Shown piece after piece: positions 1,755-34,341 of a stretch of 64,000 nt of DNA. The stretch is from Trypanosoma brucei. Lineage: Eukaryota. The notes beneath the pieces were generated by a model, which saw only the letters and a list, made by a program, of their open reading frames with translations, was not told where the DNA came from and did not search any database. Both the position numbers and the translations under genes were made by a program. The stretch lies in contig CM000207.1 of assembly GCA_000002445.1 (NCBI GenBank), positions 1,952,001 to 2,016,000 of the forward strand. Direction: 5' to 3'. Positions within the stretch are counted from its first letter, which is position 1; the number at the start of each line of letters is the position of its first letter.

Positions 1755-2996
1755 ATGGGTTCAAAGTATGACCGAGTTAAGGTGAAAGTTCATCTCGATG
1801 ATGAGCATTACTATATACTGTCGCGCTTCATACTGTCAAAAATGCTTACAGCATGTAAGTTACCAACCACAGCGGCAGTTTGCGTGAGCCTTGCGCTAAA
1901 GAAATCGTTGGTGGATCAGGAAAGGCTTGATATATCGCAGAGGGAGCTGGAGGCTGCCACTCTCTCAACAATGGCGCAACACGGTTACGGGGCCGCGTTT
2001 ACACGCCTTCTTCCGGTTATGACTCGTTTTTTCATTGAGCGCACCCCGCTTATTGTTTTCATGGCCGGGAGTGGGTGCTGTGGCAAAACCTCTATGGCAC
2101 GTTCTCTGAGTGTGAGACTGAATACGCACAACATTGTCAGTACGGACTTGTTGCTCGATATTCTTAGAGCAACGCACCATGCGTACCCATCTAGTGCTCT
2201 GCGCGGTGATCTGGTTGAGCTTTCCGATGAAAGAGTGTTACCATGTGTAAGCGAACATTCGCTATGGTTGAGTGACACGTTAGCGGTTGATGATTTTGTG
2301 CGGCTGTGGCGAACGCTTACGAGAGCCATTCGCTCGTTAGTGGAAGGAGAGGTAGAAAAAGCGTTAGTGGAGGGGAAAGTTCTCATAGTGGAGGGGAGTC
2401 TTATTGACCTCTCACTGTACCACAATTACCTGTTGGATAGCTTTCAATCCCAACGTGGTGTTATTGCAGTGGCATTTCATATCAGCTCTGATGAAATGTC
2501 TCGCAACTTTGCAGTTGAACGGCTTGTCTCCACGTATCGCAGTGTACTTCCTCTTTCCTATACCGATAATTACAATGGTGCTCTGGAATGGGTTCAGTGT
2601 CGGTTGAGGGCTATTGAAGGGGAACACCTCCGAGTGTTACGAGGTGACAGCAGTGCCATGCAGCTCCATTGTATTGATGACAGTTTGTGTGACCCAGCTA
2701 CCGGTGACTCAACCTCCGTACGGGATCTTAGTGAATCGTACAGTAATGAGACTTCCTCTACTTGTGATACACGACAGTTAAGGTTATCACAAGACAATGC
2801 AGAAATAGTTCCCGTATATGGTGTAACGAACAGCATGGCTGCATCCTCAAGGGTATGTGAGTCCATGCACGGTCTTATTTTAGACCGAATAATCAGCGCA
2901 CTGAAACAAAAAGGACCACTAAATTTGGAGCATGGAAACGTAGTTTGGTGTCAAGCAATGGATTCCGAATACATGTCGCCTACTAACGATACGTGA
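1755..2996 (+). CDS. P-loop NTPase, 2-phosphoglycerate-kinase-like family protein
   Basis: 413-aa ORF with an ATG start. Its Walker A region FMAGSGCCGKTSMARSLSVRLNTHNIVSTDLLLDILR (about nt 2050-2160) matches the G-SG-GK-T..A..L..RL...STD..IR pattern of 2PGK-like P-loop proteins. A polypyrimidine tract lies upstream. Confidence 0.5.
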   Translation: MGSKYDRVKVKVHLDDEHYYILSRFILSKMLTACKLPTTAAVCVSLALKKSLVDQERLDISQRELEAATLSTMAQHGYGAAFTRLLPVMTRFFIERTPLIVFMAGSGCCGKTSMARSLSVRLNTHNIVSTDLLLDILRATHHAYPSSALRGDLVELSDERVLPCVSEHSLWLSDTLAVDDFVRLWRTLTRAIRSLVEGEVEKALVEGKVLIVEGSLIDLSLYHNYLLDSFQSQRGVIAVAFHISSDEMSRNFAVERLVSTYRSVLPLSYTDNYNGALEWVQCRLRAIEGEHLRVLRGDSSAMQLHCIDDSLCDPATGDSTSVRDLSESYSNETSSTCDTRQLRLSQDNAEIVPVYGVTNSMAASSRVCESMHGLILDRIISALKQKGPLNLEHGNVVWCQAMDSEYMSPTNDT

Positions 2997-4140: not shown

Positions 4141-5172
4141 ATGCTTCGCCGCACGCTGCGGAAGAGGGGCGGATTCTTTCAGAATTTCAAATCCGATAAA
4201 AATAATTTCTTTACTTCGCTGTGGAATAAGCCACAAACCCGTGATGAACGCGTTAAAAGTTATGTGCCAGAGGTGATTGAGGAAAGTCTTCAGGAACAGC
4301 GCGCCGTGCTGCAAGAGAATACTGCACGTGATGTTGTAGTTGAACTTGGTTATAAAATCTTGCGCGAGATCGAAAACAAGCGGCCGACGCCGAGTATCGC
4401 GCCACATCTGGACAAAATCCTCCAAGAGTACGGATGCAAAGACCTTATCGCCCAACGGCCACTAAGTTACTTGCTTTATCCATGTTCCAGTATGAGTGGT
4501 GGGCACCAGCCGCATGAACTGGTCTCTAACTTCACGGAAAATTTTCGTGAACTTGTAGAAGAGGTAGAGCGCAGTGGCTGCTCGTTACGCGTTGGTAAGC
4601 GTGCCAACATAAGTAAAACGACTCGAGGAAAGGACACATTAGAAAATGTTTCTGACGATGCTGCCACCTTGCAGGAAGCGTCCTCGGATGATAAGCCATC
4701 GGATACGTCGAAGTCTGGACCTGTTATAATGGTGGCAAAAGAGGAGCATGAACCAATGGATGTTACGCTCTTCATAAGGGTGGTGTCTGCAATGGCACTC
4801 GCCAACGTACAAAACGGTGATTTGAGCAGTGCTGTGCGGTGTGTGGACGTATGCCTGGATTATGTGGTTGAGCCTTCACGCCACGGTGGCCTACTAGGAA
4901 TGAAAGCGGGGATTCTCGTGCATCAGCGGAAGTTCGAAGAAGCCGTCCAATGCGCAAATGAAGCTGTTCAAGTATCTGGGAATATACAGGGGTATATACA
5001 TGGGGCCTTTGCATTACGTATGTTGAACAAACTTAAAGAGGTGGTTCAGTTACTTGAAAAGGGGAGAGAAGATCATCCAATGAACACACAAATTGTTGAT
5101 TTGATTGAGGAAGCGCGTAAAGACCTTGAGGATAAGCCAGTAGTGGAAGAAACAAAGAAAATTACCTCATAA
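4141..5172 (+). CDS. hypothetical protein with C-terminal TPR-like helical repeats
   Basis: 343-aa ORF with an ATG start and no earlier ATG after the upstream poly-Y/AG. The C-terminal 120 aa show TPR-like periodicity (ALANVQNGDLSSAVRCVDVCLDYV ... AVQCANEAVQV). Confidence 0.5.
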   Translation: MLRRTLRKRGGFFQNFKSDKNNFFTSLWNKPQTRDERVKSYVPEVIEESLQEQRAVLQENTARDVVVELGYKILREIENKRPTPSIAPHLDKILQEYGCKDLIAQRPLSYLLYPCSSMSGGHQPHELVSNFTENFRELVEEVERSGCSLRVGKRANISKTTRGKDTLENVSDDAATLQEASSDDKPSDTSKSGPVIMVAKEEHEPMDVTLFIRVVSAMALANVQNGDLSSAVRCVDVCLDYVVEPSRHGGLLGMKAGILVHQRKFEEAVQCANEAVQVSGNIQGYIHGAFALRMLNKLKEVVQLLEKGREDHPMNTQIVDLIEEARKDLEDKPVVEETKKITS

Positions 5173-5589
5173 ATGACGACGAAAATTACGTGAAGTTGAA
5201 GAGAAGAATATGGATGTGGGAAGGTAAAAAAAAAAATGACAAAAAGGGGTTCCCGGTGGTAAAATCAGGTTTTGCAACAATAATAGCGAATTGTGCAACA
5301 GCGTTTCGACGTGGGAAACTGGCATTTGCTAATACAATGGATCGTACTAACAAAGCCAGACGTTTGTTAACTGTGGATCCATCATCATTTTCGCTTTTGT
5401 ACTCGAACTGGTTCCACATAATCCTTTTCTACTCCAATGGAGCGTCACTTTTGGGTCCGTGCTGATTATATCATGAATGCTCTGATTATGACGACATCGG
5501 TGAGAGCCCCTCGAATTCGACGTTCACTTTTATATCTTTAAGACACATCGAAGAGAACACATATATTTCCGATGCGGGTCACTAGTATC

Positions 5590-5600
5590 GGGGGGGGGGG
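5590..5600. repeat. G11 homopolymer
   Basis: Direct reading: ggggggggggg in intergenic DNA. Confidence 0.9.
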
Positions 5601-6359
5601 TGTAACTTCAAAACACTTATTTTTCGTTTCGTGCATCGAATTTTGTTAACCTACCACGGAGAATATTGTCGAATCACAACTGCCCGGATTTTAGGGGATC
5701 TGCTGCAGCACGTCTGAGGGCCATCATTATTTCACGCTCACAACACTCTTTCTTTTCTTTGCGTGCGGTATGGGTGAACGCTTTTGCTACCTTTTGATGC
5801 GCAATGAATTTCCGTTCTATCCCGATTATCGTGACTACTTGGCGATTAAATATCTTTCTTTTTTGTCACCAACCCTGTTGATGGTTTAACGCGTGGATTA
5901 CAGACCAACATATACCATCATTTTCTATCTGGGAACTGTGGAAAAATTGGTTACGTCACGAAATTTCTAATGGATGTGAGGGGAGGAGGTGCCAACCTTA
6001 CGTTTTATTACAAATATGAAAAACGATCAACATCAGCCACAGTATGTGGTGGTCGTGTTTATTCAAATTTTGATCACGACTTAACTTAACGTCGTCATAT
6101 GTTGTTTCGCTGGGCTGGAAGAGAACTCTCATATCGAATTCGTCCCGACTCTGACGAATTAAGGGGTGGAATTCGGGAGTAAGTTGTTTATCACATCGAC
6201 ACGGGGGATGCTGTTTTGAGTTCTTTTATTTTATATCTTCTTTTGTATTGGTGGCAGTACGTACGGACAGATGTGTATACAGACGGAACGGATATTGGGG
6301 TTTTGGTTACTTTGTATAGGCTTTCTTTTATGTCCGCACCTGTGGATCTGACAAGCTCT

Positions 6360-6440
6360 ATAATGTTACTCTTTTTCTTTTTCTTTTGCTTTGTGCATTG
6401 TGTTTCACCTTTTTTCTCCTTAAAAAATCTCAAAAAATTC
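6360..6440 (+). promoter_or_regulatory. polypyrimidine tract: candidate trans-splicing/polyadenylation signal upstream of PPR gene
   Basis: ttactctttttctttttcttttgctttgtgcattgtgtttcaccttttttctcc. Confidence 0.4.
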
Positions 6441-6628
6441 CCACCATATAACGATGTAGTGACACAGGCAGGAACAGTGGATCGAGCTTGTTTTTGTTGT
6501 GTGTGTGTGTGGAACAACACTACGTACGGTTTAATTTCGGTAGGCCGTGACAACGGGTGGTTTCTAATAACGACGTAACGCTATCTACCTGTGCCGTTAA
6601 TCACACGACGATAAATAATAACAATAAC

Positions 6629-9600
6629 ATGAAACTACTGCGACGAGGGATCGTCCGCATCCGGAATGTGGCAGCCTTTCCCATTCCCCCCGCACTGCTT
6701 TGCGCACGGCGTGGCGTGACCTCTACGCCGGTTTCTATGCAGAACGCACGTAGTGGGCATTTTCGTCCCTTTTCATCAGACGATGAAGCCCAGCTGGCGG
6801 CAATACTCACAACAAAACCGCGGCATGTGGCTCGATACGTTCGTCAGTCGGTTCTTCATTCACGGCGAAAAATAACCCACTTTCGCAACAGCGTTACCTT
6901 TCTCATGATTGCTTTGCAGTCGAGACTGCAACGAAGTGAAATATCTCCAGCAGATGCTTCTGCACTGGTAGAGAGTCTTATGAAAGAGTGTGTTGAGCTT
7001 CGGCAGGGGGATATGGCGCATCTCCTCTTTCGGGCGTCTATTCGATTCCGTAAATACGGTATGCCTATGCATTATCCCTTAGTAAAACATCTATTTGACT
7101 CCTACAGATCTGATAACGCTCGGGACCTCATGAAAAACATGGCTGATGAGCTGCGTGGTGACGAAACCCTGCGAATGTTAGCGGTACTATCGTATCAACT
7201 GTCCGGAAAATATGAGGAGGGGGAGAAACTCCTGCAAGAAATTCCCTTGGAGAAGATTGGCACAGAAGACTATTGTGCTCTTCTAGGAACGTATGGAATG
7301 ACTTCACAATACAGGCGTATCATTTCCCTCACCAATCAGCTACTGAATCATCGAGAGGCGGCGAACGGGTCACGTTTTGATTTCGACGCCATATTTTCAG
7401 CTGCAATCATAGCGATCCGTGGCGATGGTGACATGCTTGAGGAGGTGACGAAACAGGCACTGGACAATCGGGCGCAGTTATCAGACCAAGCTATCGGAAC
7501 CCTCATGCGGGCTCGGTTGCAGCGGTGTCGCACTGCCTCCGATGTGTACGAGGCTGAAAGGTTGCTTCGTGAGGATTTAGGGGTTAACATGCTGGGGATG
7601 GCTGCTCAAACGGCAGTAATTGCTCGCTGCAGCGAAATCTTATCGAAAGGTCAAAAGGTGAGCGACGAGATTATGCTGCAGAAGGTTCAACTCCTCGACA
7701 GTGCAGTTGATGAGTCTGTGGCAAATGACGCCATTGATAACTTGGAGCCATCCTACCTGACGTCACTTATTAAGGGGTATGGCGTACTTGGTCGTTTTGA
7801 TGACATGAAGCGATGCTTCAACCGCCTAAAGGAAGCTGGTGCCTTGCATGACGGTCGTTTGTATGACGAAATGCTACGCTGGTATGCACACGCGTACAAC
7901 CTTAAAGAGGTTATTGCGTTGAAGGAGGAGATGCAGGAGCAGCATATTTATCACACAGCGTATACTTACCAGCATTTGTTTCGTGTTCTCGATAAATACT
8001 ACCCTCGTATGGTAGAGAAGTACATGAACGAGATGCGTAGCAAGGGGATCCAGATTGAATATTACATGTATCCGACGCTTCTGCGCGTGTTCGGTGTTTT
8101 GCAGGACTACTCAATTGTGGAGCAGCTTTACCGGGAGATTAAAGGTAAGGTTGCTGCTGGAGATGTCCAAGTCTTTTCTCCTGCAGTTGCAGTGCAATTA
8201 CTGAAGACATATCAACACGACACAAGTCGTTGCGAGGTTATTATACAAGAAGCTGAGAACTACGGATTACTAGCGAACGAAGCAGTGCAAGCTGAGATCG
8301 TGCAATACTACTCCATGAATAACCGACACGAGGATTTAAATGCTTTGGTTTCACGAATACCATATAAATCTCCGGATATCTATCGCGTTCTCCTTCGTGA
8401 TACGTCAAAGCACCGCAATCGTCAAGGTTTCGACGCTCTTCTCAAAGAAATGCGGGAGAGGCACGTTTCTGTAAATGAGCGAACATTCGGCGAGGTGATA
8501 ACGGGTTTGGGGCACTTTAACGACTTAGAAGGTGTAAAGCGGTATTTCCATGAAGCCCTTACCAGCAATGCCGTACGGTCGCCATTGTTCTTCGCCGTTG
8601 CAGCGTCTGCCTTTGCCCGTTTGGGCGATGCGCAGGCAGTGGACGAGTGTTGGAACGATCTCCTGCAATCCAAGGTTACCATAACGATGCCCGTGTACAA
8701 CAAGTTTCTTGATTTGTACATGGCTAGCAACAATGTGGAAATGGTGCAGCAGATTCTCAACACTATGATGAAACTCGTGCCACCCAACCCTGTAACGGCT
8801 ACGACAGTTGTTGACATGCTTGGAAAGATGGGCAGGCTCAGTGAGATGGAGTGCGTGTTAGAGGAGATGTCTCGATCCGCCAATGCAGCCCCCACGCAGG
8901 TGACGTACCACCAGGCAATGAATGCCTATGCGAAAAGCGGGGACGTTACTAAGATGGAGGCGATGCGGGAAAAAATGAAAGAAGAAGGGTTTCAGGAGAA
9001 TCACATCACATTTAATATTCTTTTTGAGGGTTACGGGCGCGCTAAGCGATACGAACGCGTAAAGGAATTGGTGGAGGAACGTAAAAGCAAGCAAATAGCA
9101 ATGGAAGAATTTGGCTATGCCGTGCTTCTCAACATTTACTCACGTGCGCACATGGTGGAAGAAACGACACAGATTGTAGAAGAAATGGTTTCTGCCGGTG
9201 TACCGTTTACTAGCCGCATGCTGGCAACCCTCGCAACTTCTTTTAGCTACATTGGTGATATACCAAAGGTGGAGCACTACGTGTCGCTACTCCTCTCCCA
9301 CAGGGACCGACGACAACGGGACGTGGAATCAGTTTACCTCATGTACGCTAAAATGCGTGACACTGTAAAGATTCAGGAGCTTTTGGATTCTGAGAAACTT
9401 CCCAAGACACAGTTTATTTATAACGTGTGTGTAGGTGCGTTTGCGCGGGCCGGTGAGCACACTAAGGTTGCGTCGCTGCTCACACAAATGGAAGAGAGAG
9501 GGTTCACCCTCTCCCGTAACACAAGCGTGACGCTCAGTACCCTTTTGCTCAAGGCTGGAAAGTTGGAGTTAGCTCAGACCGTGTTAAAGTGGAAGGGATG

Positions 9601-9697
9601 CACTCCTAGCGGGGGGAGGGAAAGGGAAGGTGAGGAAGGGGAGGAAATTGAAATCGAAGACACGACGGCTTTGGGTGCAGATGATCGTGCACATTAA
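6629..9697 (+). CDS. pentatricopeptide repeat (PPR) protein, predicted mitochondrial
   Basis: The ORF-track start 6557 is GTG; the first ATG is 6629 (MKLLRRGIVRIRNVAAFP...), which is Arg-rich like a mitochondrial presequence. Repeated 35-aa PPR-like units are visible, e.g. VTYHQAMNAYAKSGDVTKMEAMREKMKEEGFQENHITFNILFEGYGRAKRYERVKELVEE and YAVLLNIYSRAHMVEETTQIVEEMVSAGVPF. Confidence 0.7.
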   Translation: MKLLRRGIVRIRNVAAFPIPPALLCARRGVTSTPVSMQNARSGHFRPFSSDDEAQLAAILTTKPRHVARYVRQSVLHSRRKITHFRNSVTFLMIALQSRLQRSEISPADASALVESLMKECVELRQGDMAHLLFRASIRFRKYGMPMHYPLVKHLFDSYRSDNARDLMKNMADELRGDETLRMLAVLSYQLSGKYEEGEKLLQEIPLEKIGTEDYCALLGTYGMTSQYRRIISLTNQLLNHREAANGSRFDFDAIFSAAIIAIRGDGDMLEEVTKQALDNRAQLSDQAIGTLMRARLQRCRTASDVYEAERLLREDLGVNMLGMAAQTAVIARCSEILSKGQKVSDEIMLQKVQLLDSAVDESVANDAIDNLEPSYLTSLIKGYGVLGRFDDMKRCFNRLKEAGALHDGRLYDEMLRWYAHAYNLKEVIALKEEMQEQHIYHTAYTYQHLFRVLDKYYPRMVEKYMNEMRSKGIQIEYYMYPTLLRVFGVLQDYSIVEQLYREIKGKVAAGDVQVFSPAVAVQLLKTYQHDTSRCEVIIQEAENYGLLANEAVQAEIVQYYSMNNRHEDLNALVSRIPYKSPDIYRVLLRDTSKHRNRQGFDALLKEMRERHVSVNERTFGEVITGLGHFNDLEGVKRYFHEALTSNAVRSPLFFAVAASAFARLGDAQAVDECWNDLLQSKVTITMPVYNKFLDLYMASNNVEMVQQILNTMMKLVPPNPVTATTVVDMLGKMGRLSEMECVLEEMSRSANAAPTQVTYHQAMNAYAKSGDVTKMEAMREKMKEEGFQENHITFNILFEGYGRAKRYERVKELVEERKSKQIAMEEFGYAVLLNIYSRAHMVEETTQIVEEMVSAGVPFTSRMLATLATSFSYIGDIPKVEHYVSLLLSHRDRRQRDVESVYLMYAKMRDTVKIQELLDSEKLPKTQFIYNVCVGAFARAGEHTKVASLLTQMEERGFTLSRNTSVTLSTLLLKAGKLELAQTVLKWKGCTPSGGREREGEEGEEIEIEDTTALGADDRAH

Positions 9698-9949
9698 CAC
9701 AACTGAGCAAGGTTAAAGAGAGGAGGATGCTAACGCCACTTGCAAAATGCCACTTAACTGATCTAGTGTTGGTTGAAGTTGCAGCGTCCGATTAGCACAG
9801 GAAACTTCTTTATACATATATATGTTCTTATCGTTTTCCTTCCCCACACAAAATGGTGCTGTGTCCTCTTCTCGTATGTTGTAACCCTCGTATTCTTTTA
9901 TTTAATAATTATGTGAGGTTTCCCCGTACATCAGCAACTGTCGTTCTTT

Positions 9950-10017
9950 AATGTTCCCTCCTTCCCTTTGTTCCTGTTCTTTACGTGCTGTCTCTAGCTC
10001 TCACACCCCTGCGCTAG
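9950..10017 (+). promoter_or_regulatory. polypyrimidine tract + AG upstream of ATG 10089 (inside the longer 9951 ORF extension)
   Basis: ttccctccttccctttgttcctgttctttacgtgctgtctctagctctcacacccctgcgctagg. This supports 10089 as the functional start codon. Confidence 0.4.
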
Positions 10018-10088
10018 GGTTGATCATATCAACTCAGTTGCGGGTAGTTGCACGCAATAAAGCCGTTGCTACCTCACAAAACACCTTA

Positions 10089-13000
10089 ATGTCCATTGCG
10101 GTAGAAGAGAGTTCGGTTAGCACCGATGCAGCCGTTCAGCGAACAAATGATGATAGTGTCGTAAGCAAGCGGTCGGCGGTTCATAAGGGGTACTTTGATG
10201 ACCCGTATTTGCGTTTCTTTGTGAAGAAACTCTCCCGTCGATCGCCACTAATCAACCGTGGGTACTATCTACGTATGCTGGTTATCACTGACGTGATTGA
10301 GCGATGTATTCACCATTTACGTTGTTTGAAAATACGCTGCACCGTGAATACCCCTCCGTTGCCCCCAACTGGTAATGCTGTTGCACTACCCGTACAAGTG
10401 ATATCTCTTGGTGCTGGTTATGATACACTTGCCATGCGTTTGAAGCAGCGACCGGATTACGGCAACGTACACTTCTACGAGGTTGACTTCCCCGCCGTTA
10501 TGCAATCCAAGTCAATGCTTGTAAAGATGGCACCATTTGGTTCATTTCCAGAGGATATTGTGGCAGATCCCGGTGGAGAGTTAGTTAAACTTTATGGTAA
10601 CAACTACTGGGCGGTTGGTACGGATCTACGTAGCACAAATCGGGATCTTGTAACGTGCTTGAGGGAGGTATCGCCACAATTTTCCACAGACAATCCAACT
10701 GTGCTGTACGCCGAATGTGTGATGCAGTATATGCCTCCAGTTGCTGCATCACACCTCATCAAGCAAATCGCAAGTGCTTTTCCCTGCGCAATTTTTGTTG
10801 CATATGATCAGCTGCATCCATCGGACAGCTTTGGCACGGTTATGCTGTCAGCGTTACGCACGAAGAACAGTCCGCTTTTAAGTATTGGGGAGTGTCCCAG
10901 CGGTGCTGCAATGGTAAGGAGGGCAATTCAGCAAGGAATGTGCAAAGCGCGATTTGCCAACTTTCATGATCTCTCAAAATTTTATATATCGGGAGATAAT
11001 CACGATCGTGTGGAGGCACTGGAGCCGTTTGACGAGTGGGAGGAGTGGTGTGAAATGTGCGAGCACTATGGCATTACAATGGCTACCACATTATCAGATG
11101 AGGAAATGCCGGACCACTCGTGCTTTAAAGAGATAATGGAGCAGAAAGAAGAGGAATTGTGCGCAGGGTTACCTTGTAAGTCGCAGGGAAATGAGCAGAA
11201 CGCACTTAGGTTGGAAAATTGGCCCACAGGTCGGTTCGGTTTCGAGGGTTGGGGAAATGGTGGTGCAGTTGCAGAAAGGTTGTTCAGCGGAGATGTGCTT
11301 ATCATATCGTTTGGTGGGTTTTCCGTCACACGAGGTCACCAGCGGACGAATACCCTCCATGTCCATAGCTTGCGCAGTGGGGATCGCAAGGTGCTTCAGT
11401 CTTCTTTAAGTGTCGAGCCGCCGTCACTTGTGTTCCATTCAATGAGTCGTGTCTCGAGGGGAAGTTATGTGGTGTTTGGTGGTCGTACGAATCCTCAAGA
11501 TGTGGCTTCGGATGCTTATTTACTTCGACTTGAACTACCTACTGATGGATATGGCGAGGAAGCAAACATTGTGGCGACATGGAGCAAACTACAGCAAACC
11601 GCGGATGACGGCAAGTTGCCGGTTGCGCGGTATCGGCATGCTGCCACCAGTGTGACTAATAGTGGTTGTGACGAAAACACTGATATGCGTAATATTTTTG
11701 TCTTCGGTGGCCGTTGCGCTACCGGTGAGTTCTTGAATGATGCATGGCTGGGGAGTGTTGGCGACGGAATTATTCACTGGAAACTGTTGCGACTCTCTGG
11801 GGACATACCACCGCCCTGCTGCTCCAGTGGAGTAGTTGACGCTACAATGGGAAGCATCGTACTGCTAAGCGGTGGTCTTCTCCGTGGTGGCGTCAGTGAC
11901 AGTTCCTTGTGGAGTATTGACTGGGTTACTGGTGTTTGCAACAAACGGGACGCAATCGTTGGCCCACGCTTCTCCCATACGATGTGTCGAGTAAGTGTGA
12001 ATGGTGTCACAGGAGTGCTTGTCGTGGGTGGTTCCTCGACTGAACCCAGTGCGTCCTTTCAAGCAACGCAGATTTTACTTCTGGACCCGGTCTCTGGTGA
12101 GATAACTGAAGCACTGAAACTCCCACCCATGTGCCCCACGTGGACCCGCCATTCTTGTGTTGCACTCGAGGATGGCGCTGTTGGCGTACTAGGGAGCGGG
12201 TTCACATGCTTTTCATTTGGAACTTTCGCCACAAAGCCGCTACTGCTACTTTTGGGTGGGAAACGCGGTGGTCGTAATGCTCACAGCTGGGACGTATCCA
12301 AATTGGAAAGCACATCCACATCAGCTGCTGCTAATGCCTTTTCCATCTGCTGCACAGTACAAAGGCGTCCCGTTGAAGAGCAATCCCTTAGTGTGGGAAG
12401 TTTCTCGGTGTTGGTGAATCATCCTTTCAAACCAGTGGTGTTCCGCGACGTTGACATGGGCTGTTGTGTCAAGGCATGGAGTGATCCAGCGTATCTAAAT
12501 CGCGTAGAGGGGAATACACGAGTTTCTGTCCATGTCGCGCGGAATACGGAACTGCTTGATTTTGTTACGAAAAACTTTTCTTTTCAGCATGTGTCATTCA
12601 ATGAGCTTCTCGATCATTGCCTAGCTAGCTCTGCAGCACTAGCAGAAAGCGGTAACTTACCAGGGAAACTGAATGAAGAAAGAGAAACTTGGTACCTCCG
12701 CGCCGTGGCATCCAATATGAAGAGCGAGCGGGCGAACATATGGCGTGATTTCCAAGGTCTAAAGGACGATTTTGTACTACCGTCAGCAACAGTCGATCAC
12801 ATTAAGCCGCGCATGCACCAAGCCTGCTTGCGGATAAGCGCTCCGCCTCTGCAGTTGTGGACGCACTACGACACGCTTGACAACGTACTCTGCCAAATAG
12901 TGGGTAGAAAGCGCGTAGTACTTTTCCCTCCCAGTGAATACAACAACCTTTATATTAGCGGTAGCTCCTCAGCCGTTACCAATATCGATAAACCGGATTA

Positions 13001-13388
13001 CATGCGATTTCCTCGATTTATCGATGCATCTCGCCACGCTTTAGAGGTAGAAATCGGCCCAGGAGACATGCTGTTCATACCAGCACTATGGTTCCACCAT
13101 ATCACCACTCTTGAAGGAAGCTATTCGATGAGTGTTAATGTCTTCTTTGAGCGTCTCCCGCATGCGGACTATGATAAGAAGGACCTGTACGGCAACAAAG
13201 ATATTCCAGCTGCATCGCGCCTTCGCGCGGGTATAGTGAAGAAAGTAAAGGAAATGATTTCTGAAACTGCTGTCGAACGAACAAGTGATGGAAAAGCGCT
13301 GACACCAGATTTGGTGGAGTTTGCGCTGCGGCAGGCACTACAAGACTTGATGGAGGTGGCGGATGATATGTGTACTGCCCTTCGATAG
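10089..13388 (+). CDS. TYW4: tRNA wybutosine-synthesizing protein 4-like: leucine carboxyl methyltransferase (LCM) domain + Kelch beta-propeller + C-terminal JmjC (TYW5-like) domain
   Basis: LCM/PPM motifs are present: DAAVQRTNDDSVVSKR..GYFDDPYLRFF, INRGYYLR, VISLGAGYDTLAMRL, YEVDFPAVM, LYAECVMQYM (nt ~10150-11000). Kelch-like GG blades (VVFGGRTNP, IFVFGGRCATGEF, VLVVGGSS) span nt ~11200-12300. The JmjC core has the HYD...LFPP and ALWFHHI Fe(II) ligand pattern (nt ~12860-13100). The longest ORF starts at ATG 9951, but a poly-Y tract plus AG (~9950-10016) lies inside that extension. ATG 10089 gives the canonical LCMT N-terminus, so it is the preferred start. Confidence 0.65.
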   Translation: MSIAVEESSVSTDAAVQRTNDDSVVSKRSAVHKGYFDDPYLRFFVKKLSRRSPLINRGYYLRMLVITDVIERCIHHLRCLKIRCTVNTPPLPPTGNAVALPVQVISLGAGYDTLAMRLKQRPDYGNVHFYEVDFPAVMQSKSMLVKMAPFGSFPEDIVADPGGELVKLYGNNYWAVGTDLRSTNRDLVTCLREVSPQFSTDNPTVLYAECVMQYMPPVAASHLIKQIASAFPCAIFVAYDQLHPSDSFGTVMLSALRTKNSPLLSIGECPSGAAMVRRAIQQGMCKARFANFHDLSKFYISGDNHDRVEALEPFDEWEEWCEMCEHYGITMATTLSDEEMPDHSCFKEIMEQKEEELCAGLPCKSQGNEQNALRLENWPTGRFGFEGWGNGGAVAERLFSGDVLIISFGGFSVTRGHQRTNTLHVHSLRSGDRKVLQSSLSVEPPSLVFHSMSRVSRGSYVVFGGRTNPQDVASDAYLLRLELPTDGYGEEANIVATWSKLQQTADDGKLPVARYRHAATSVTNSGCDENTDMRNIFVFGGRCATGEFLNDAWLGSVGDGIIHWKLLRLSGDIPPPCCSSGVVDATMGSIVLLSGGLLRGGVSDSSLWSIDWVTGVCNKRDAIVGPRFSHTMCRVSVNGVTGVLVVGGSSTEPSASFQATQILLLDPVSGEITEALKLPPMCPTWTRHSCVALEDGAVGVLGSGFTCFSFGTFATKPLLLLLGGKRGGRNAHSWDVSKLESTSTSAAANAFSICCTVQRRPVEEQSLSVGSFSVLVNHPFKPVVFRDVDMGCCVKAWSDPAYLNRVEGNTRVSVHVARNTELLDFVTKNFSFQHVSFNELLDHCLASSAALAESGNLPGKLNEERETWYLRAVASNMKSERANIWRDFQGLKDDFVLPSATVDHIKPRMHQACLRISAPPLQLWTHYDTLDNVLCQIVGRKRVVLFPPSEYNNLYISGSSSAVTNIDKPDYMRFPRFIDASRHALEVEIGPGDMLFIPALWFHHITTLEGSYSMSVNVFFERLPHADYDKKDLYGNKDIPAASRLRAGIVKKVKEMISETAVERTSDGKALTPDLVEFALRQALQDLMEVADDMCTALR

Positions 13389-14439
13389 TGTCATACGCTC
13401 CGGATGGGCGATTTGACTACTTTCTCCTTCAAGCCGGCACCAGTGTCGTAGCGGCGGCACAATTTGTCGCAAAAGGCGCTCACAACGTTTATCGTACCTG
13501 TAACTATGCACTGAATTATTAATTAAAAAAAAACTCCATCTGTAACTGTCTGGTATGTTCTTTGTTTTGTGATACTGACTATACACCTACAATGGGTACT
13601 CGACCTCTTGCCAATATACTATATATATATACATATATATTCTCAACCTATCTTTTTTCCTTTCTTTTTGTTTATTCTGAACTCCCTTTCTTGTTGCTAT
13701 TCCGACGCAAACACATTTTGTCCAGTTATTCCCACAACCAAAAGCCGGGGTCTCCTCCACCGTTTTGTGGGGTGTCTTGTACAGTCCACTGGGGGCACTG
13801 AGCCTAAACTGTGCGCAACCCAGGAGAGGGCAAAAAGTGCGACAGCAGCAACAGAAAGAGCAAAAACAAGAGGGAGGGGAAAGGGAGTTTTTTTTTATTA
13901 TTTTGAGCGCCACCTAGCCGGACGGCTTTACTGATTTGTTAATACCATTTTTTTTTTAAGGAAGGAGAGGGGTGAGCCAGCAATATTAAATTATTTTAGT
14001 TGAGGAGCGACGATAACATTTTCAACAAGAAGGAGAAAGGGAAGCACAAATCTAGAAGCATTTTTCATCAGCAAAGTGCCGCAGGTGTAAAGTAAGAGGT
14101 GTAACATATCAAGGACACACAAAACTACACATTTATACAAATACATTAATACATCCTCTCCTCGATCTGCAGAGGCGTGAGGGCGAAAGAAGGGGGAGAT
14201 TTTTTTTCGTCGTTTTTCCTTCGCTCAGCTTCGCTACGTCTCAACCTCAATAGTAAGGAGACAACGGTGAGCAGTCAACCAATTGGGACGTTGAGGTGCT
14301 TAGAGCGCAGAGTGAAACAAGAAAGGGTAGAAGCGTAAAGTCGGAACAAGTGTGTTAGGTGCACACAGAAAGGAGGTGGGAAAGGGGACAATAAAATAAA
14401 AGGAGGGGGGCGGAAAACATACAATTGAGTTTCCTCTTC

Positions 14440-21414: not shown

Positions 21415-21977
21415 GCGCTTTTGTTGGGGTGGGATTTGTGATGCTGGTTGCCGGAGGAGATTCAGCCGTTACTTTCTTTATGTAGAGTTACAGTGAAATG
21501 GGCTTTTATCGTGTCCTAGGGCTGTATTGTGAACAATAAAACTGCGAACCCCCGGTTGTAGGTGCTTGTTCTAGACTCCTTATCTTACCCGAAGCAAATT
21601 CACCGGTATCTTTCCTTGTTGTAGTTTTAAAGTTTTCGCCAGCATGAGTATGGAGGAAGGGGGCTTTGTCTCTACCATATTGGTTAATGTTTTTCGTATA
21701 TATATATATATTGTTTCCTGTACTACACGAAGTTGTATGTTGCGCTAAACTTGTTGTTCGCTGGAATAAACTACATATTTTTTTTATACTTTGTCATTAC
21801 CCCCCCCTTCTGCACGAAGAACCTTACACGCATATGCAGACAGTGCTACAGATAGTAAAGGACCACAAGTGACTCACTTGAATACCGCGTATAACCATAG
21901 AGTAGTGTACGTATCATCATACATTTAAATTGCGTCCTGGAATTATATGCGAGGTCAGCCTTAAAGGCAAGGAAAGA

Positions 21978-23573
21978 ATGACTTCTCACAACATAGTGAT
22001 GAGGCAAAGGACACTAAATGAGTTTTTCCCTCAAACCCCTTCAGCGGCTGGCACACACGGTAGAACAATAGTGCTGCCATGGCAGGAAAAAAGAGATGAA
22101 AACAACTCGCCGCATGGTTACATAGGCTGGGATATCGTAACTGCAGCTCTAATGGAGTCGGATACGACAGACACATCAAGCCTCAGAATACTTCTTCAGG
22201 TGCTTTATACGCGGAAAATTATTTCTGAAACTCGTCAGGTGCTGTGCTTTGGGGTACTTTGTCATGTTCTCGATCACGTCATGACTGCTGAAGAACGTGT
22301 GCAGTTTTTTTGTTTCACTTTACCCTGGATGAAGCGCGCCGTACTCCGGGGACCTGAGTTGTTTCCCCAAGAGATTCCTATTTTATCACAGAGTGATACC
22401 CATCGTTTGCTGTTCACACATGAAGAGGCCTCAACACTGCTGGTTTGTGGTTTTTTCTCCCTTTTCCAGGGAAGATCTCAGGTGCATAAATTTGGAAGCT
22501 CTACTGGGCTACACAAACTTTCTTCCTTTAACTTTGTGCGCCTTCTTTGCAATGAAAAGCCTGATCGGTTTAGCAGTCAATGTGCGAAGGTGCAGTGTTT
22601 ACTACAGTATTTTAGATATTGCGCTCGTTGCACGAAGGAAGTGTGGCCGTGCGTGGAGATCTATCGCGTTGCACGTACATCCTTTCCTGACTTTGAAAGA
22701 AGCACCCGCGCTATGGAGCCTGTCGTAATTTCCGAAAACTTGCTCATTGAAGAGAGTTATACGAACTTACAAGTGGATTTCGCCAACCGGTGTATCGGGG
22801 GTGGTGTTTTGTCTTCTGGTTGTCTCCAAGAGGAGATACGCTTCGTCACATCTCCGGAGCTACTTCTTTCTTGTCTCGTTTGTGAGGAGCTGTTAGACAA
22901 TGAAGTGGTGTTTGTTGCCGGCGCCGCGTCCTACAGTGTTACGGAGGGTTATGCGAAGACTTTCCGTTATATTAGCGGGTGTACACCGGACATTATTCCT
23001 TTAAGTGGCCGGATGTTCAGGGTGGATTCATGCGAACAAGGGATGCATGTAGATAAAGTGCCTGTTAAGCTAGTTGGGAGAAATGATGAGGCTCCAAGGT
23101 TTGTGCGCAACACGTGTATAGTGGCCATGGACGCAGTCGATTTCAGTGATGCCGTGGACAACCAATTTCGTAAGGATTTTATAATCCGTGAAACCCATAA
23201 AGCTTTTGTGGCATTCAAAGGAATTCCTGACAGCACTCTATCATCCGTGCACTCTGGTCCTATTGCGACGGGGAACTGGGGCTGCGGTGCCTTTGGTGGC
23301 GATAGAGAACTTAAACTGTTATTACAGTGGTGTGCGGCCTCTCAGGCAGGACGACCGTTAATTTATTCCGCGTTCGGTGATATTGCGTTATGCAATGGTT
23401 TTCATAAAGTTTACAAGAAGCTACGCGAAGAGGAATGGACCGTAGGGGAGGTTTTTACTATGATTCTGTTCTGCTCCAGCATGTTTCCGAGACCACGCAA
23501 CCAGTTGTTTGAGTGCTTCCTCACAATGCCGTGGTGTCGCCTTCCTCTGGGCACACATCTGGTGTTAATTTAG
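21978..23573 (+). CDS. PARG: poly(ADP-ribose) glycohydrolase (PARG)
   Basis: The PARG catalytic signature GGG-X7-QEE appears as IGGGVLSSGCLQEE (nt 22797-22835). The downstream motif TGNWGCGAFGGD (nt ~23272-23304) is typical of canonical PARGs. The track start 21930 is TTG; the first in-frame ATG is 21978. Confidence 0.8.
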   Translation: MTSHNIVMRQRTLNEFFPQTPSAAGTHGRTIVLPWQEKRDENNSPHGYIGWDIVTAALMESDTTDTSSLRILLQVLYTRKIISETRQVLCFGVLCHVLDHVMTAEERVQFFCFTLPWMKRAVLRGPELFPQEIPILSQSDTHRLLFTHEEASTLLVCGFFSLFQGRSQVHKFGSSTGLHKLSSFNFVRLLCNEKPDRFSSQCAKVQCLLQYFRYCARCTKEVWPCVEIYRVARTSFPDFERSTRAMEPVVISENLLIEESYTNLQVDFANRCIGGGVLSSGCLQEEIRFVTSPELLLSCLVCEELLDNEVVFVAGAASYSVTEGYAKTFRYISGCTPDIIPLSGRMFRVDSCEQGMHVDKVPVKLVGRNDEAPRFVRNTCIVAMDAVDFSDAVDNQFRKDFIIRETHKAFVAFKGIPDSTLSSVHSGPIATGNWGCGAFGGDRELKLLLQWCAASQAGRPLIYSAFGDIALCNGFHKVYKKLREEEWTVGEVFTMILFCSSMFPRPRNQLFECFLTMPWCRLPLGTHLVLI

Positions 23574-28291: not shown

Positions 28292-30052
28292 ATGCACTGG
28301 CCGCACGGAAAATGCGGTATAGTGCTAACGGTAAGGTTACCACTGTTGATGGTGGATGCTATGCCCCGGAAGAACTTTCTGCGTGCACCTCTTTCACATT
28401 CATTTATGCATATCGGTTTTGCAATTATGTCGCAACGGCGTTGGCAATCGACCATAGGTGAGCAACGGCCCACCGCACGTCGCTCAAAGAATGCCTACAG
28501 CCATCCTTTGGCGCCCAAAGATCCCGCTTCCCGCAACATCGTTGTTCCGGATGCTGTTCACGCAAAGGTGGGCTCACCAGATACGCTTCCCGCCGAGATA
28601 TTGCAGAAACGGGCACAACGCGCCTTACTCATGCAGTTGCAGCAGAATGTTATATGGGAAGGTACAGTAATAAGTGACGAACGGCACCATCTCATACAGC
28701 ATTTCGTCAAACTTCGCCAAAACCCAAAATACCGCTCGTCGAAACAAATGATGGTTGTTGGGGGCAGGCATTTGCTGCACGAACTGCACAAGCGAGGGTA
28801 CACACCGAGACATCTGCTCGTCCGTGAGGGACAGCAAAAACCGAAGTGGGCAACGAATACGGGGGTTAAAACGGAAATTATTCGGGTGGACCGACACGTA
28901 GCCGATGTCTGCTCCCCCGGTAACGATGGTTTCATAGGTGACTTTGATATCCCAAAGCCACCCCCAAAGGAAAGTCTCATAGCAAACAAGCAGAGGTTTG
29001 ATCGCGTACTTGTGCTTGACAACGTGGATGATCCCGGTCTTCTTGGTACAGTGTTACGTACAGCGGCCGGGTTTCACTATGACGCGGTTATAGCGACAAA
29101 TCATTGTGCAGATTTATACGATCATCGGGTGATTCGCGCAGCTCGCGGTGCCCATTTCCAAAAGGCCGTTCCCATTTATACGTTGAAGGAGGAAGATGGA
29201 GATAACGTGTACGGAATGTTGAACCACATTCTGCAAAGAAACGATTTGTCACCCGTCTGCTTTGCAGCGAGGGATGATAACGACGCAACTGACGAACTAG
29301 GTGACCTTGTCAGACAGTTACGGTCTGGTTGCGCTCAGCCCAAATCGCGGACCTCACCTTGCGGATCCCCAGCGGTAAAGCGGGAAACACTTAGTGATTA
29401 CTGTCGCAATAACTTTACTAAAAGCGATGCGAAGGGTCAACTTCTCATGGTTGGGCCCAATCACAAACGTAATTCAGTTCGGCGTTGGTCAAAACAACTT
29501 AGCATACCAGTGACCCAATTGCTTCTGGACGAAGTATCGCAGACTGATGCTCTCATCGCCTTTTCTGTTGTGCTTCACGCCCTGCGGCCACATGGTAATT
29601 GGGACTACCTTCCCCTTCACAACAACCAGGAGCAACAGGAGACAGCTTCATTGGAACTTCAGGGGATGAAGGCCTCTGTGGATATTGGACCCAATCGGTT
29701 CGATTTAAATGAGAAGGATCTTAGCCTTGATGAAGAAGAGCAAGTGGAGAAAGCGCGGCTAGATAACGAATTGATGCGCTGGCGACGCCTACAACGTGCA
29801 CAAGGAAGTGACTATGACCATTGGATGGAGGCGGAGACGCGGCGCATCCAAGAGATGGCATCTAACGAGAGCCGCAAGCAAGTTAGTCCCTGGGCACGGC
29901 TTCGAACGCGCTGGCAGAAGGGTGCAGCAGGGATGCCGCCGTGGGTCCCGAATATTGTTGATGAGTATCGCACGCCACTTGACAGAGATGCTTTACGGGT
30001 AGAAAGGGAGGTAAGCGAGTCTCATGTTAGACCGGAGAATTACGACAGGTGA
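28292..30052 (+). CDS. SpoU/TrmH-family RNA 2'-O-ribose methyltransferase (SPOUT class) with long C-terminal extension
   Basis: SPOUT motifs are present: RVLVLDNVDDPGLLGTVLRTAAGF, HRVIRAARGAHF and MVGPNHK (nt ~29000-29480). An acidic/coiled C-terminal extension of roughly 150-200 aa (DEEEQVEKARLDNELMRWRRLQRAQ...) follows. The N-terminus is basic, so possibly organellar. Confidence 0.7.
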   Translation: MHWPHGKCGIVLTVRLPLLMVDAMPRKNFLRAPLSHSFMHIGFAIMSQRRWQSTIGEQRPTARRSKNAYSHPLAPKDPASRNIVVPDAVHAKVGSPDTLPAEILQKRAQRALLMQLQQNVIWEGTVISDERHHLIQHFVKLRQNPKYRSSKQMMVVGGRHLLHELHKRGYTPRHLLVREGQQKPKWATNTGVKTEIIRVDRHVADVCSPGNDGFIGDFDIPKPPPKESLIANKQRFDRVLVLDNVDDPGLLGTVLRTAAGFHYDAVIATNHCADLYDHRVIRAARGAHFQKAVPIYTLKEEDGDNVYGMLNHILQRNDLSPVCFAARDDNDATDELGDLVRQLRSGCAQPKSRTSPCGSPAVKRETLSDYCRNNFTKSDAKGQLLMVGPNHKRNSVRRWSKQLSIPVTQLLLDEVSQTDALIAFSVVLHALRPHGNWDYLPLHNNQEQQETASLELQGMKASVDIGPNRFDLNEKDLSLDEEEQVEKARLDNELMRWRRLQRAQGSDYDHWMEAETRRIQEMASNESRKQVSPWARLRTRWQKGAAGMPPWVPNIVDEYRTPLDRDALRVEREVSESHVRPENYDR

Positions 30053-34026: not shown

Positions 34027-34341
34027 ACCAGAACATGAGGTTGCTGATTGCAAGACCATGTTTATCGTGCTTGTGCACTTGCATGATGTTTTTTAAGTCG
34101 CAGCGGATCGCAGTGTCGCAGGAACTTACTTTACTATTGGAGTACTATCACCATCGAGCGGCATGTTTGCACCTGTGTTCATGTCCGCAACTCACCTTAA
34201 CTTGAGTAGAACCTCTCATTAGAATTCCCTTTTTTTTTCTTTGTTCTTTGCTTTTCATCCACACGTAGGTACTTTTTATTTTTCTATTTTGCCTCACCTA
34301 GTCGGCTTTCGTTGACAGTTGAGTTATTTTCCCTGCCGAAA

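What the first reader, a model, noticed from the sequence alone, without database searches (positions are those of the whole stretch)
10089..13388. Single polypeptide combining LCM methyltransferase, Kelch propeller and JmjC dioxygenase (TYW4+TYW5-type fusion)
The N-terminal third carries unambiguous leucine-carboxyl-methyltransferase motifs. The middle has Kelch-like GG blades. The C-terminal ~200 aa have a JmjC double-stranded beta-helix with a HxD...H Fe(II) triad (HYD at ~12864, HH at ~13095). In the hydroxywybutosine pathway the JmjC enzyme TYW5 hydroxylates yW-72 and TYW4 (LCM+Kelch) then methylates/methoxycarbonylates. Having both activities in one chain would let position-37 wyosine chemistry be read from domain content. 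The 138-nt upstream ATG extension (9951) contains a poly-Y/AG and is probably 5'UTR.
Basis: partly seen in the sequence, partly recalled or inferred. Interest (0 to 1): 0.6.

Follow-up and report, generated by a model that had tools for sequence, protein, structure and literature searches.

The report
Known trypanosome TYW4/TYW5 fusion enzyme

Summary
The ORF 9951..13388 (+) is identical to XP_827514.1 of T. brucei brucei TREU927 (Tb927.9.12780). It has three domains. The first is an LCM methyltransferase (Pfam E 3.5e-18), closer to animal TYW4/LCMT2 than to LCMT1. The second is a six-bladed Kelch propeller. The third is a JmjC/Cupin_8 domain (E 3e-48) whose best solved relative is human TYW5 (E 8.5e-56).

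Every characterised catalytic residue is present: yeast Tyw4 Arg88, Tyr229 and the GxG motif, and human TYW5 Tyr106, Arg108, Arg149, His160, Asp162, Asn166, Lys175 and His235. The AlphaFold model (pLDDT 86.9, pTM 0.78) matches yeast TYW4 and human TYW5 crystal structures.

Iyer et al. 2010 used this kinetoplastid Tyw4–JmjC fusion to predict the wybutosine hydroxylase. Sample et al. 2015 named XP_827514.1 TbTYW4/5, found it cytosolic, and detected hydroxywybutosine in T. brucei tRNA.

Three other Trypanosoma species have a stop 3–14 codons upstream of their start, and T. equiperdum is annotated at the short start. It remains unproven without spliced-leader mapping.

The parts
9944..9984 (+). 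41-nt polypyrimidine tract spanning the upstream ATG at 9951. The next AG is at 9996-9997. It is a candidate trans-splice acceptor signal that would leave 10089 as the first ATG of the mRNA.
   Evidence: scan for 20-nt windows with at least 85% pyrimidine; sequence
9951..10088 (+). In-frame 46-codon upstream extension, included in the TREU927 and gambiense annotations (1145 aa). It is probably 5'UTR. It has no counterpart in T. vivax, T. cruzi marinkellei or T. theileri.
10089..13388 (+). Coding sequence of TbTYW4/5 (Tb927.9.12780), 1099 aa plus a stop at 13386-13388, counted from the conserved start.
10119..11093 (+). TYW4 N-terminal domain (aa 11-335): an LCM-type SAM-dependent methyltransferase. 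Its key residues are GxG Gly108-Ala-Gly110 (nt 10410-10418), Arg62 (nt 10272-10274, equivalent to yeast Arg88) and Tyr214 (nt 10728-10730, equivalent to yeast Tyr229).
11160..11195 (+). Low-confidence linker (aa 358-369) between the methyltransferase and the propeller.
   Evidence: pLDDT below 50
11208..12251 (+). Six-bladed Kelch-like beta-propeller (aa 374-721). The GG motifs after strand b are at aa 409-410, 464-465, 540-541, 595-596 and 647-648, with GSG at 702-704.
   Evidence: blade definition from PMC2685095
12261..12350 (+). Low-confidence, poorly conserved linker (aa 725-754) between the propeller and the JmjC domain.
12393..13382 (+). TYW5-type JmjC Fe(II)/2-oxoglutarate dioxygenase domain (aa 769-1098) with two C-terminal helices (aa 1040-1062 and 1073-1098). 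Its key residues are Tyr869 (12693-12695), Arg871 (12699-12701), Arg915 (12831-12833), His926 (12864-12866), Asp928 (12870-12872), Asn932 (12882-12884), Lys941 (12909-12911) and His1003 (13095-13097).

Best explanation
The ORF encodes TbTYW4/5, a cytosolic bifunctional enzyme that finishes hydroxywybutosine (OHyW) synthesis at position 37 of tRNA-Phe.

The C-terminal JmjC domain uses Fe(II), 2-oxoglutarate and O2 to hydroxylate the beta-carbon of the aminocarboxypropyl side chain of yW-72. Fe(II) is held by His926, Asp928 and His1003. 2-Oxoglutarate is held by Tyr869, Asn932 and Lys941. Arg871 and Arg915 bind the substrate carboxylate.

The N-terminal LCM methyltransferase, buttressed by the Kelch propeller, then uses two SAM molecules and CO2 to methylate the alpha-carboxyl and methoxycarbonylate the alpha-amino group. 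Its key residues are the GxG SAM motif, Arg62 and Tyr214.

Having both enzymes in one chain keeps them at 1:1 and next to the same tRNA anticodon loop.

What is shown:
- OHyW in T. brucei cytosolic tRNA, its dependence on TYW1L, and the cytosolic location of the tagged protein (PMC4417183).

What is inferred by homology: that this protein performs the three final reactions, and in what order. No knock-down or enzyme assay of this protein was found.

Translation most probably starts at ATG 10089.
For: Identity: the sequence is an exact match to XP_827514.1 / EAN77184.1. That is the accession Sample et al. 2015 call TbTYW4, with a TYW5-like JmjC extension. The gene ID is Tb927.9.12780.

Domains: Pfam finds LCM, Kelch and Cupin_8.

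Solved relatives by sequence: human TYW5 3al5, E 8.5e-56; LCMT1, E 9.5e-35; yeast Tyw4 2zw9, E 1.5e-21.

LCM subtype: the LCM domain alone scores 155-182 bits against animal TYW4/LCMT2 and 127 bits against human LCMT1.

Catalytic residues: the characterised residues of human TYW5 and yeast Tyw4 map onto conserved columns. All are invariant in the 14-sequence alignment and invariant or at least 90% conserved in the 51-sequence alignment.

Fold: the AlphaFold model has pLDDT 86.9 and pTM 0.78. Its best PDB fold matches are yeast TYW4 across methyltransferase plus propeller (TM-score normalised to the target, TMt, 0.77; E 6e-37) and human TYW5 (TMt 0.88-0.90; E about 1e-27).

Conservation of the architecture: the same three-domain layout occurs in all trypanosomatids listed, and in Perkinsela, Planoprotostelium, Monosiga and Pneumocystis.

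Literature: Iyer et al. 2010 report the kinetoplastid fusion. Sample et al. report OHyW by LC-MS and cytosolic TbTYW4/5.

Start codon: three other Trypanosoma species close the frame 3-14 codons upstream of their start, and T. equiperdum, with identical DNA, is annotated at 1099 aa.
Against: - No direct genetic or biochemical test of Tb927.9.12780 itself was found in the searchable library. Sample et al. knocked down only TYW1L and TYW1S.
- A 2026 T. cruzi survey assigns 'TYW4' to a stand-alone LCM protein (the orthologue of Tb927.10.4460) and only 'TYW5' to the fusion. That assignment is a best-BLAST-hit label at 25% identity and 40% coverage.
- The order of the reactions is taken from the human and yeast enzymes.
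- A second polypyrimidine tract and AG upstream of 9951 means the long form cannot be excluded.
Confidence: 0.93

Rival explanations
1. Only the JmjC half works in the wybutosine pathway. The methylation and methoxycarbonylation steps are done by the separate stand-alone LCM protein (Tb927.10.4460), and the LCM-Kelch part of the fusion acts as a tRNA-binding scaffold or is inactive.
For: The supplement of PMC13210174 labels the stand-alone LCM protein as the TYW4 homologue and the fusion as TYW5.
Against: - The fusion keeps the SAM GxG motif and the equivalents of yeast Arg88 and Tyr229, invariant across 51 sequences.
- Its LCM domain scores higher against animal TYW4 than against LCMT1.
- It has the LCM-plus-propeller architecture that defines TYW4, and its model superposes on yeast TYW4 over about 775 columns.
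- The stand-alone protein lacks a propeller and matched yeast TYW4 at only 25% identity over 40% coverage, as expected of the PP2A methyltransferase LCMT1.
Confidence: 0.04
2. The JmjC domain is a protein hydroxylase of the FIH/JMJD5 kind and the LCM domain methylates a protein C-terminus, so the protein has nothing to do with tRNA.
For: FIH and JMJD5 structures are also significant hits, at E 1e-16 and 1e-9. LCMT1 scores better than yeast Tyw4 in the PDB search.
Against: - Human TYW5 is better than FIH by about 40 orders of magnitude.
- The TYW5-specific arginines (human Arg108 and Arg149, which are Asp and Leu in FIH) are present and conserved.
- Yeast Tyw4 is simply divergent: animal TYW4 outscores LCMT1.
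- OHyW, the predicted product, is present in T. brucei.
Confidence: 0.02
3. The single chain is an annotation or assembly artefact that joins two neighbouring genes.
For: In the Bodo saltans assembly the LCM-Kelch part and the Cupin_8 part are annotated as two adjacent genes.
Against: - In the window the ORF is uninterrupted for 3.4 kb.
- The same continuous architecture is found in more than 50 proteins from independent assemblies.
- The Bodo locus itself carries short tandem duplications and frame breaks, and the last propeller blade lies between the two annotated genes. That is where the artefact is.
Confidence: 0.01

Closest known systems
TbTYW4/5 of Trypanosoma brucei (XP_827514.1, Tb927.9.12780), Sample et al. 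2015, Nucleic Acids Res 43:4262 (PMC4417183)
   Same: It is the same protein. The 1145-aa ORF is an exact sequence match. The paper describes the TYW5-like JmjC extension, the cytosolic location, and OHyW in T. brucei tRNA.
   Different: Nothing in the sequence differs.
Tyw4-JmjC fusions reported by Iyer, Abhiman, de Souza and Aravind 2010, Nucleic Acids Res 38:5261 (PMC2938197)
   Same: They describe a C-terminal JmjC domain added to Tyw4 (LCMT2 plus Kelch propeller) in kinetoplastids, choanoflagellates and several ascomycetes, and used it to predict the yW hydroxylase. One search shows the same groups, plus Amoebozoa (Planoprotostelium) and Perkinsela.
   Different: That work was comparative. 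It did not single out the T. brucei locus or its start codon.
Human TYW5 (PDB 3AL5/3AL6), Kato et al. 2011 (PMC3045595)
   Same: About 33-34% identity over about 330 aligned columns. The Fe(II) triad, the 2-oxoglutarate contacts and the two TYW5-specific arginines are the same, and the C-terminal helical region is present.
   Different: The human enzyme is a stand-alone 315-aa protein. Here the domain is tethered to TYW4 through a linker of about 30 residues that the model predicts with low confidence.
Yeast Tyw4/Ppm2 (PDB 2ZW9/2ZWA/2ZZK), Suzuki et al. 2009 (PMC2685095)
   Same: An LCM methyltransferase plus a six-bladed Kelch-like propeller. The equivalents of Arg88 and Tyr229 are conserved, and the model superposes on it with TMt 0.77.
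   Different: Only about 20% identity. Yeast has no JmjC domain and makes yW, not OHyW.

Membership tests
TYW4 / LCMT2 / Ppm2 | LCM-type Rossmann methyltransferase domain with a GxG SAM-binding motif | tested here: met
   PF04072, E 3.5e-18. Gly108-Ala-Gly110 in LGAGYD is invariant in 51 sequences.
TYW4 / LCMT2 / Ppm2 | Catalytic pocket residues equivalent to yeast Arg88 (R88A is inactive) and Tyr229 | tested here: met
   Arg62 and Tyr214 align with yeast Arg88 and Tyr229 (roles). Both are invariant.
TYW4 / LCMT2 / Ppm2 | Six-bladed Kelch-like beta-propeller following the methyltransferase, with a GG motif in each blade | tested here: met
   Kelch HMMs. The model has six four-stranded blades. 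There are GG motifs at five blades and GSG at the sixth. The model superposes on 2zwa over methyltransferase plus propeller.
TYW4 / LCMT2 / Ppm2 | LCM domain of the LCMT2 rather than the LCMT1 (PP2A methyltransferase) subtype | tested here: met
   phmmer with residues 1-340 gives 155-182 bits against animal TYW4 and 127 bits against human LCMT1. This is a score comparison, not a phylogeny.
TYW4 / LCMT2 / Ppm2 | Catalyses carboxyl methylation and methoxycarbonylation of (OH)yW-72 on tRNA-Phe | not testable with these tools
   No assay or knock-down of this protein was found. The end product OHyW is present in T. brucei.
TYW5 (yW hydroxylase, JmjC) | JmjC/Cupin_8 double-stranded beta-helix fold | tested here: met
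   PF13621, E 3.1e-48. The model matches 3al5 with TMt 0.88-0.90.
TYW5 (yW hydroxylase, JmjC) | HxD...H Fe(II) triad (human His160, Asp162, His235) | tested here: met
   His926, Asp928 and His1003 align with the human triad. All three are invariant in the 14-sequence alignment. In the 51-sequence alignment His926 and His1003 are invariant and Asp928 is at least 90% conserved.
TYW5 (yW hydroxylase, JmjC) | 2-Oxoglutarate contacts (human Tyr106, Asn166, Lys175) | tested here: met
   Tyr869, Asn932 and Lys941 align with them. They are invariant or at least 90% conserved.
TYW5 (yW hydroxylase, JmjC) | TYW5-specific arginines needed for activity (human Arg108 and Arg149, which are Asp and Leu in FIH) | tested here: met
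   Arg871 and Arg915 align with them. They are invariant in 14 sequences and at least 90% conserved in 51.
TYW5 (yW hydroxylase, JmjC) | Hydroxylates yW-72 on tRNA-Phe | not testable with these tools
   Inferred from homology and from OHyW in T. brucei and T. cruzi tRNA.

The most novel reading that the evidence does not exclude
The 46-codon extension (9951-10088) is confined to the T. brucei group. It might be translated from a minor, alternatively trans-spliced mRNA that uses the AG at 9916-9917. It is basic, has no acidic residues and is rich in Ser and Leu, so it could send a small fraction of TbTYW4/5 into the mitochondrion.

That would allow some OHyW to be completed inside the organelle. 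It would also offer an explanation for the roughly 50% drop in mitochondrial OHyW that Sample et al. saw after knock-down of the mitochondrial TYW1S.

Three points count against it:
- The composition of the extension is what translation of a polypyrimidine tract gives by default.
- No other Trypanosoma examined has such an extension.
- The tagged protein was found in the cytosol.
Probability: 0.04. Interest if true: 0.4.

Novelty: already known. Interest (0 to 1): 0.12.

Why it matters
It matters little as a discovery. The fusion is the textbook 'Rosetta stone' clue that led to the identification of the wybutosine hydroxylase in 2010. The T. brucei protein was named, located in the cell and placed in the pathway in 2015.

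Three practical points remain:
- The TREU927 and gambiense protein records probably start 46 codons too early.
- Best-hit annotation pipelines can split the fusion's two roles wrongly. The 2026 T. cruzi survey labels it only TYW5 and gives TYW4 to a likely LCMT1.
- No direct loss-of-function or enzymatic test of TbTYW4/5 turned up in the searchable library, so its three reactions still rest on homology.

Tried and rejected
- I asked whether the LCM domain might be LCMT1-like, because human LCMT1 outscored yeast Tyw4 in the PDB search. I rejected this: animal TYW4 proteins outscore LCMT1 for the same 340 residues.
- I asked whether the Bodo saltans split shows that the fusion arose after Bodo diverged. 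I rejected this as evidence. The Bodo locus has frame breaks and two short tandem duplications, the last propeller blade lies between the two gene models, and the earlier-branching Perkinsela has the fusion.
- I looked for published spliced-leader or functional data under the gene ID and under the TbTYW4 names and found nothing beyond Sample et al..
- I asked whether the two 586-aa ORFs downstream are tandem duplicates. They are unrelated.
- I scanned ten neighbouring ORFs for other wybutosine-pathway genes and found none, as expected in a trypanosome polycistronic unit.
Full report
**What is there.** The window is a Trypanosoma brucei chromosomal segment. Every ORF of 200 aa or more but one lies on the + strand, which is typical of a polycistronic unit. 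The flagged ORF runs 9951..13388 (1145 aa) and has a second in-frame ATG at 10089, giving 1099 aa. The 1145-aa translation is an exact match to XP_827514.1 / EAN77184.1 of T. brucei brucei TREU927, on a 3.06-Mb contig. The gene ID is Tb927.9.12780. Residue numbers below count from Met-10089.

**Checking the observation.** Pfam finds LCM (residues 103-228, E 3.5e-18), Kelch families (405-611, E 2e-18) and Cupin_8 (781-1023, E 3.1e-48), plus JmjC_2. Among solved structures the best sequence match is human TYW5, 3AL5 (E 8.5e-56, residues 779-1058). Human LCMT1 (E 9.5e-35) and yeast Tyw4/Ppm2, 2ZW9 (E 1.5e-21) follow. FIH and JMJD5 are far behind, at 1e-16 and 1e-9. The only corrections are that the TYW5-like region spans about 330 aa rather than 200, and that the sixth blade has GSG rather than GG.

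**Catalytic residues.**
- *TYW5 side.* Kato et al. (PMC3045595) define three groups of residues for human TYW5. The metal ligands are His160, Asp162 and His235. The 2-oxoglutarate contacts are Tyr106, Asn166 and Lys175. The two TYW5-specific arginines are Arg108 and Arg149, and changing either to alanine abolishes activity. Counting through the HMMER alignment (the 3al5_A chain is offset by 23 from native numbering), these correspond to His926, Asp928, His1003, Tyr869, Asn932, Lys941, Arg871 and Arg915.
- *TYW4 side.* Suzuki et al. (PMC2685095) identify the GxG SAM motif, Arg88 (R88A gives 0% complementation) and Tyr229. In one search these align with Gly108-Ala-Gly110, Arg62 and Tyr214.
- *Conservation.* All of these are invariant in a 14-sequence alignment reaching Monosiga, Planoprotostelium and Pneumocystis. 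In a 51-sequence alignment of fused homologues they are invariant or at least 90% conserved.
- *LCM subtype.* LCMT1 outscored yeast Tyw4 in the PDB search, so I compared the first 340 residues with both families. Animal TYW4/LCMT2 proteins score 155-182 bits and human LCMT1 scores 127 bits. The domain is therefore of the TYW4 type, and yeast Tyw4 is simply divergent.

**Structure.** AlphaFold2 with the 51-sequence alignment gives mean pLDDT 86.9 and pTM 0.78.
- Only three segments fall below pLDDT 50: the N-terminal 10 residues and two linkers, 358-369 and 725-754.
- The middle domain has six four-stranded blades.
- Two long C-terminal helices (1040-1062 and 1073-1098) follow the beta-helix.
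- Foldseek against the PDB puts yeast TYW4 first. The match covers methyltransferase plus propeller, about 775 columns, with TM-score normalised to the target (TMt) 0.77 and E 6e-37.
- Human TYW5 comes next (TMt 0.88-0.90, E about 1e-27), ahead of LCMT1, FIH and JMJD5.
- A pTM this high for a three-domain chain suggests a defined mutual arrangement. I could not inspect the coordinates, so this stays a suggestion.

**How it most likely works.** By homology, the JmjC domain hydroxylates the side chain of yW-72 at G37 of tRNA-Phe, using Fe(II), 2-oxoglutarate and O2. The LCM domain then methylates the carboxyl and methoxycarbonylates the amine at a single SAM site, with the propeller packed against it as in yeast. 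The product is hydroxywybutosine.
- *Shown by others.* OHyW is the only wyosine derivative in T. brucei cytosolic tRNA. It disappears on TYW1L RNAi. The epitope-tagged TbTYW4/5 is cytosolic (PMC4417183). OHyW is also present in T. cruzi (PMC13210174).
- *Not shown anywhere I could search.* No knock-down, mutant or assay of this protein itself turned up.

**Start codon.**
- The 46-codon extension has no counterpart in orthologues.
- In genomic DNA of T. vivax, T. cruzi marinkellei and T. theileri, the frame is closed 9, 3 and 14 codons upstream of the annotated ATG.
- T. equiperdum has identical DNA in this region but is annotated at the short start.
- A 41-nt polypyrimidine tract (9944-9984) followed by an AG at 9996-9997 would yield an mRNA whose first ATG is 10089.
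- A weaker tract (9823-9847), with an AG at 9916-9917, could instead retain 9951.
Spliced-leader mapping is still needed.

**Comparison with what is known.** The finding is already in the literature at two levels.
- Iyer et al. [quoted passage not shown] They recognised it as JmjC with an HxD...H triad, and from these fusions predicted the wybutosine hydroxylase.
- Sample et al. 2015 then listed XP_827514.1 as TbTYW4 with a TYW5-like JmjC extension, called it TbTYW4/5, and placed it last in the cytosolic pathway.

My homology search shows the same architecture throughout trypanosomatids, and in Perkinsela, Planoprotostelium, Monosiga and Pneumocystis.

**Verdict.** The feature is real and was correctly interpreted, but it is already known. 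Interest is low. The residual value lies in three places: the probable over-extension of the TREU927 protein record by 46 codons, the lack of a direct functional test of the protein, and a likely mislabelling of TYW4 in a recent T. cruzi survey.

Noticed in passing
L006 (Bodo saltans CYKH01001751.1), about 7150-7520; gene models 5001-7261 and 7492-8769: In Bodo saltans the LCM-Kelch part and the Cupin_8 part are annotated as two adjacent genes. The DNA between them holds two short tandem duplications of about 45 nt, and the last propeller-blade motif (GGGLTCFSFG) sits in a third frame. The first gene model does not translate colinearly (14 stops). This looks like an assembly or annotation problem, or a decaying gene, rather than a clean ancestral split.
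   Followed up: partly
Supplement of PMC13210174 (T. cruzi tRNA modification survey); concerns window 10089-13388: The survey labels the stand-alone LCM protein (C4B63_13g166 / Tb927.10.4460; 25% identity and 40% coverage to yeast Tyw4) as TYW4. It labels the fusion (C4B63_2g799 / Tb927.9.12780) only as TYW5. The stand-alone protein is more likely the PP2A methyltransferase LCMT1, and the fusion carries the TYW4 function.
   Followed up: partly
window 6557-9697 (+): A large PPR-repeat protein (1046 aa from a GTG, so the true start is probably a downstream ATG) lies immediately upstream. This PPR-TYW4/5 neighbourhood is conserved in T. vivax, T. cruzi marinkellei, T. theileri, T. equiperdum and Bodo saltans. 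A Pfam-less gene of about 550 aa follows downstream in the four Trypanosoma loci.
   Followed up: partly
window 1-64000: 22 of the 23 ORFs of 200 aa or more are on the + strand. The exception, 60028-60837 (-), lies inside a + strand ORF. Cumulative GC skew rises monotonically, so the window is one unidirectional polycistronic unit. Neighbours include a PARG (21930-23573), a SpoU/MRM3-like RNA methylase (28292-30052), a protein kinase (30999-33062) and a Leo1-like protein (34312-36084). None belongs to the wybutosine pathway.
   Followed up: partly
window 1755-2996 (+): A 413-aa ORF has a short Zeta_toxin (P-loop kinase) Pfam match (E 5e-7, residues 96-146). This is probably just the P-loop region of an unrelated kinase-like protein.
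   Followed up: no
window 13569-13934 (both strands): Two overlapping ORFs of 108-121 aa, both starting at GTG, lie on opposite strands in the intergenic region downstream of the gene. Their translations are of low complexity, and they are most likely 3'UTR or intergenic sequence rather than genes.
   Followed up: no
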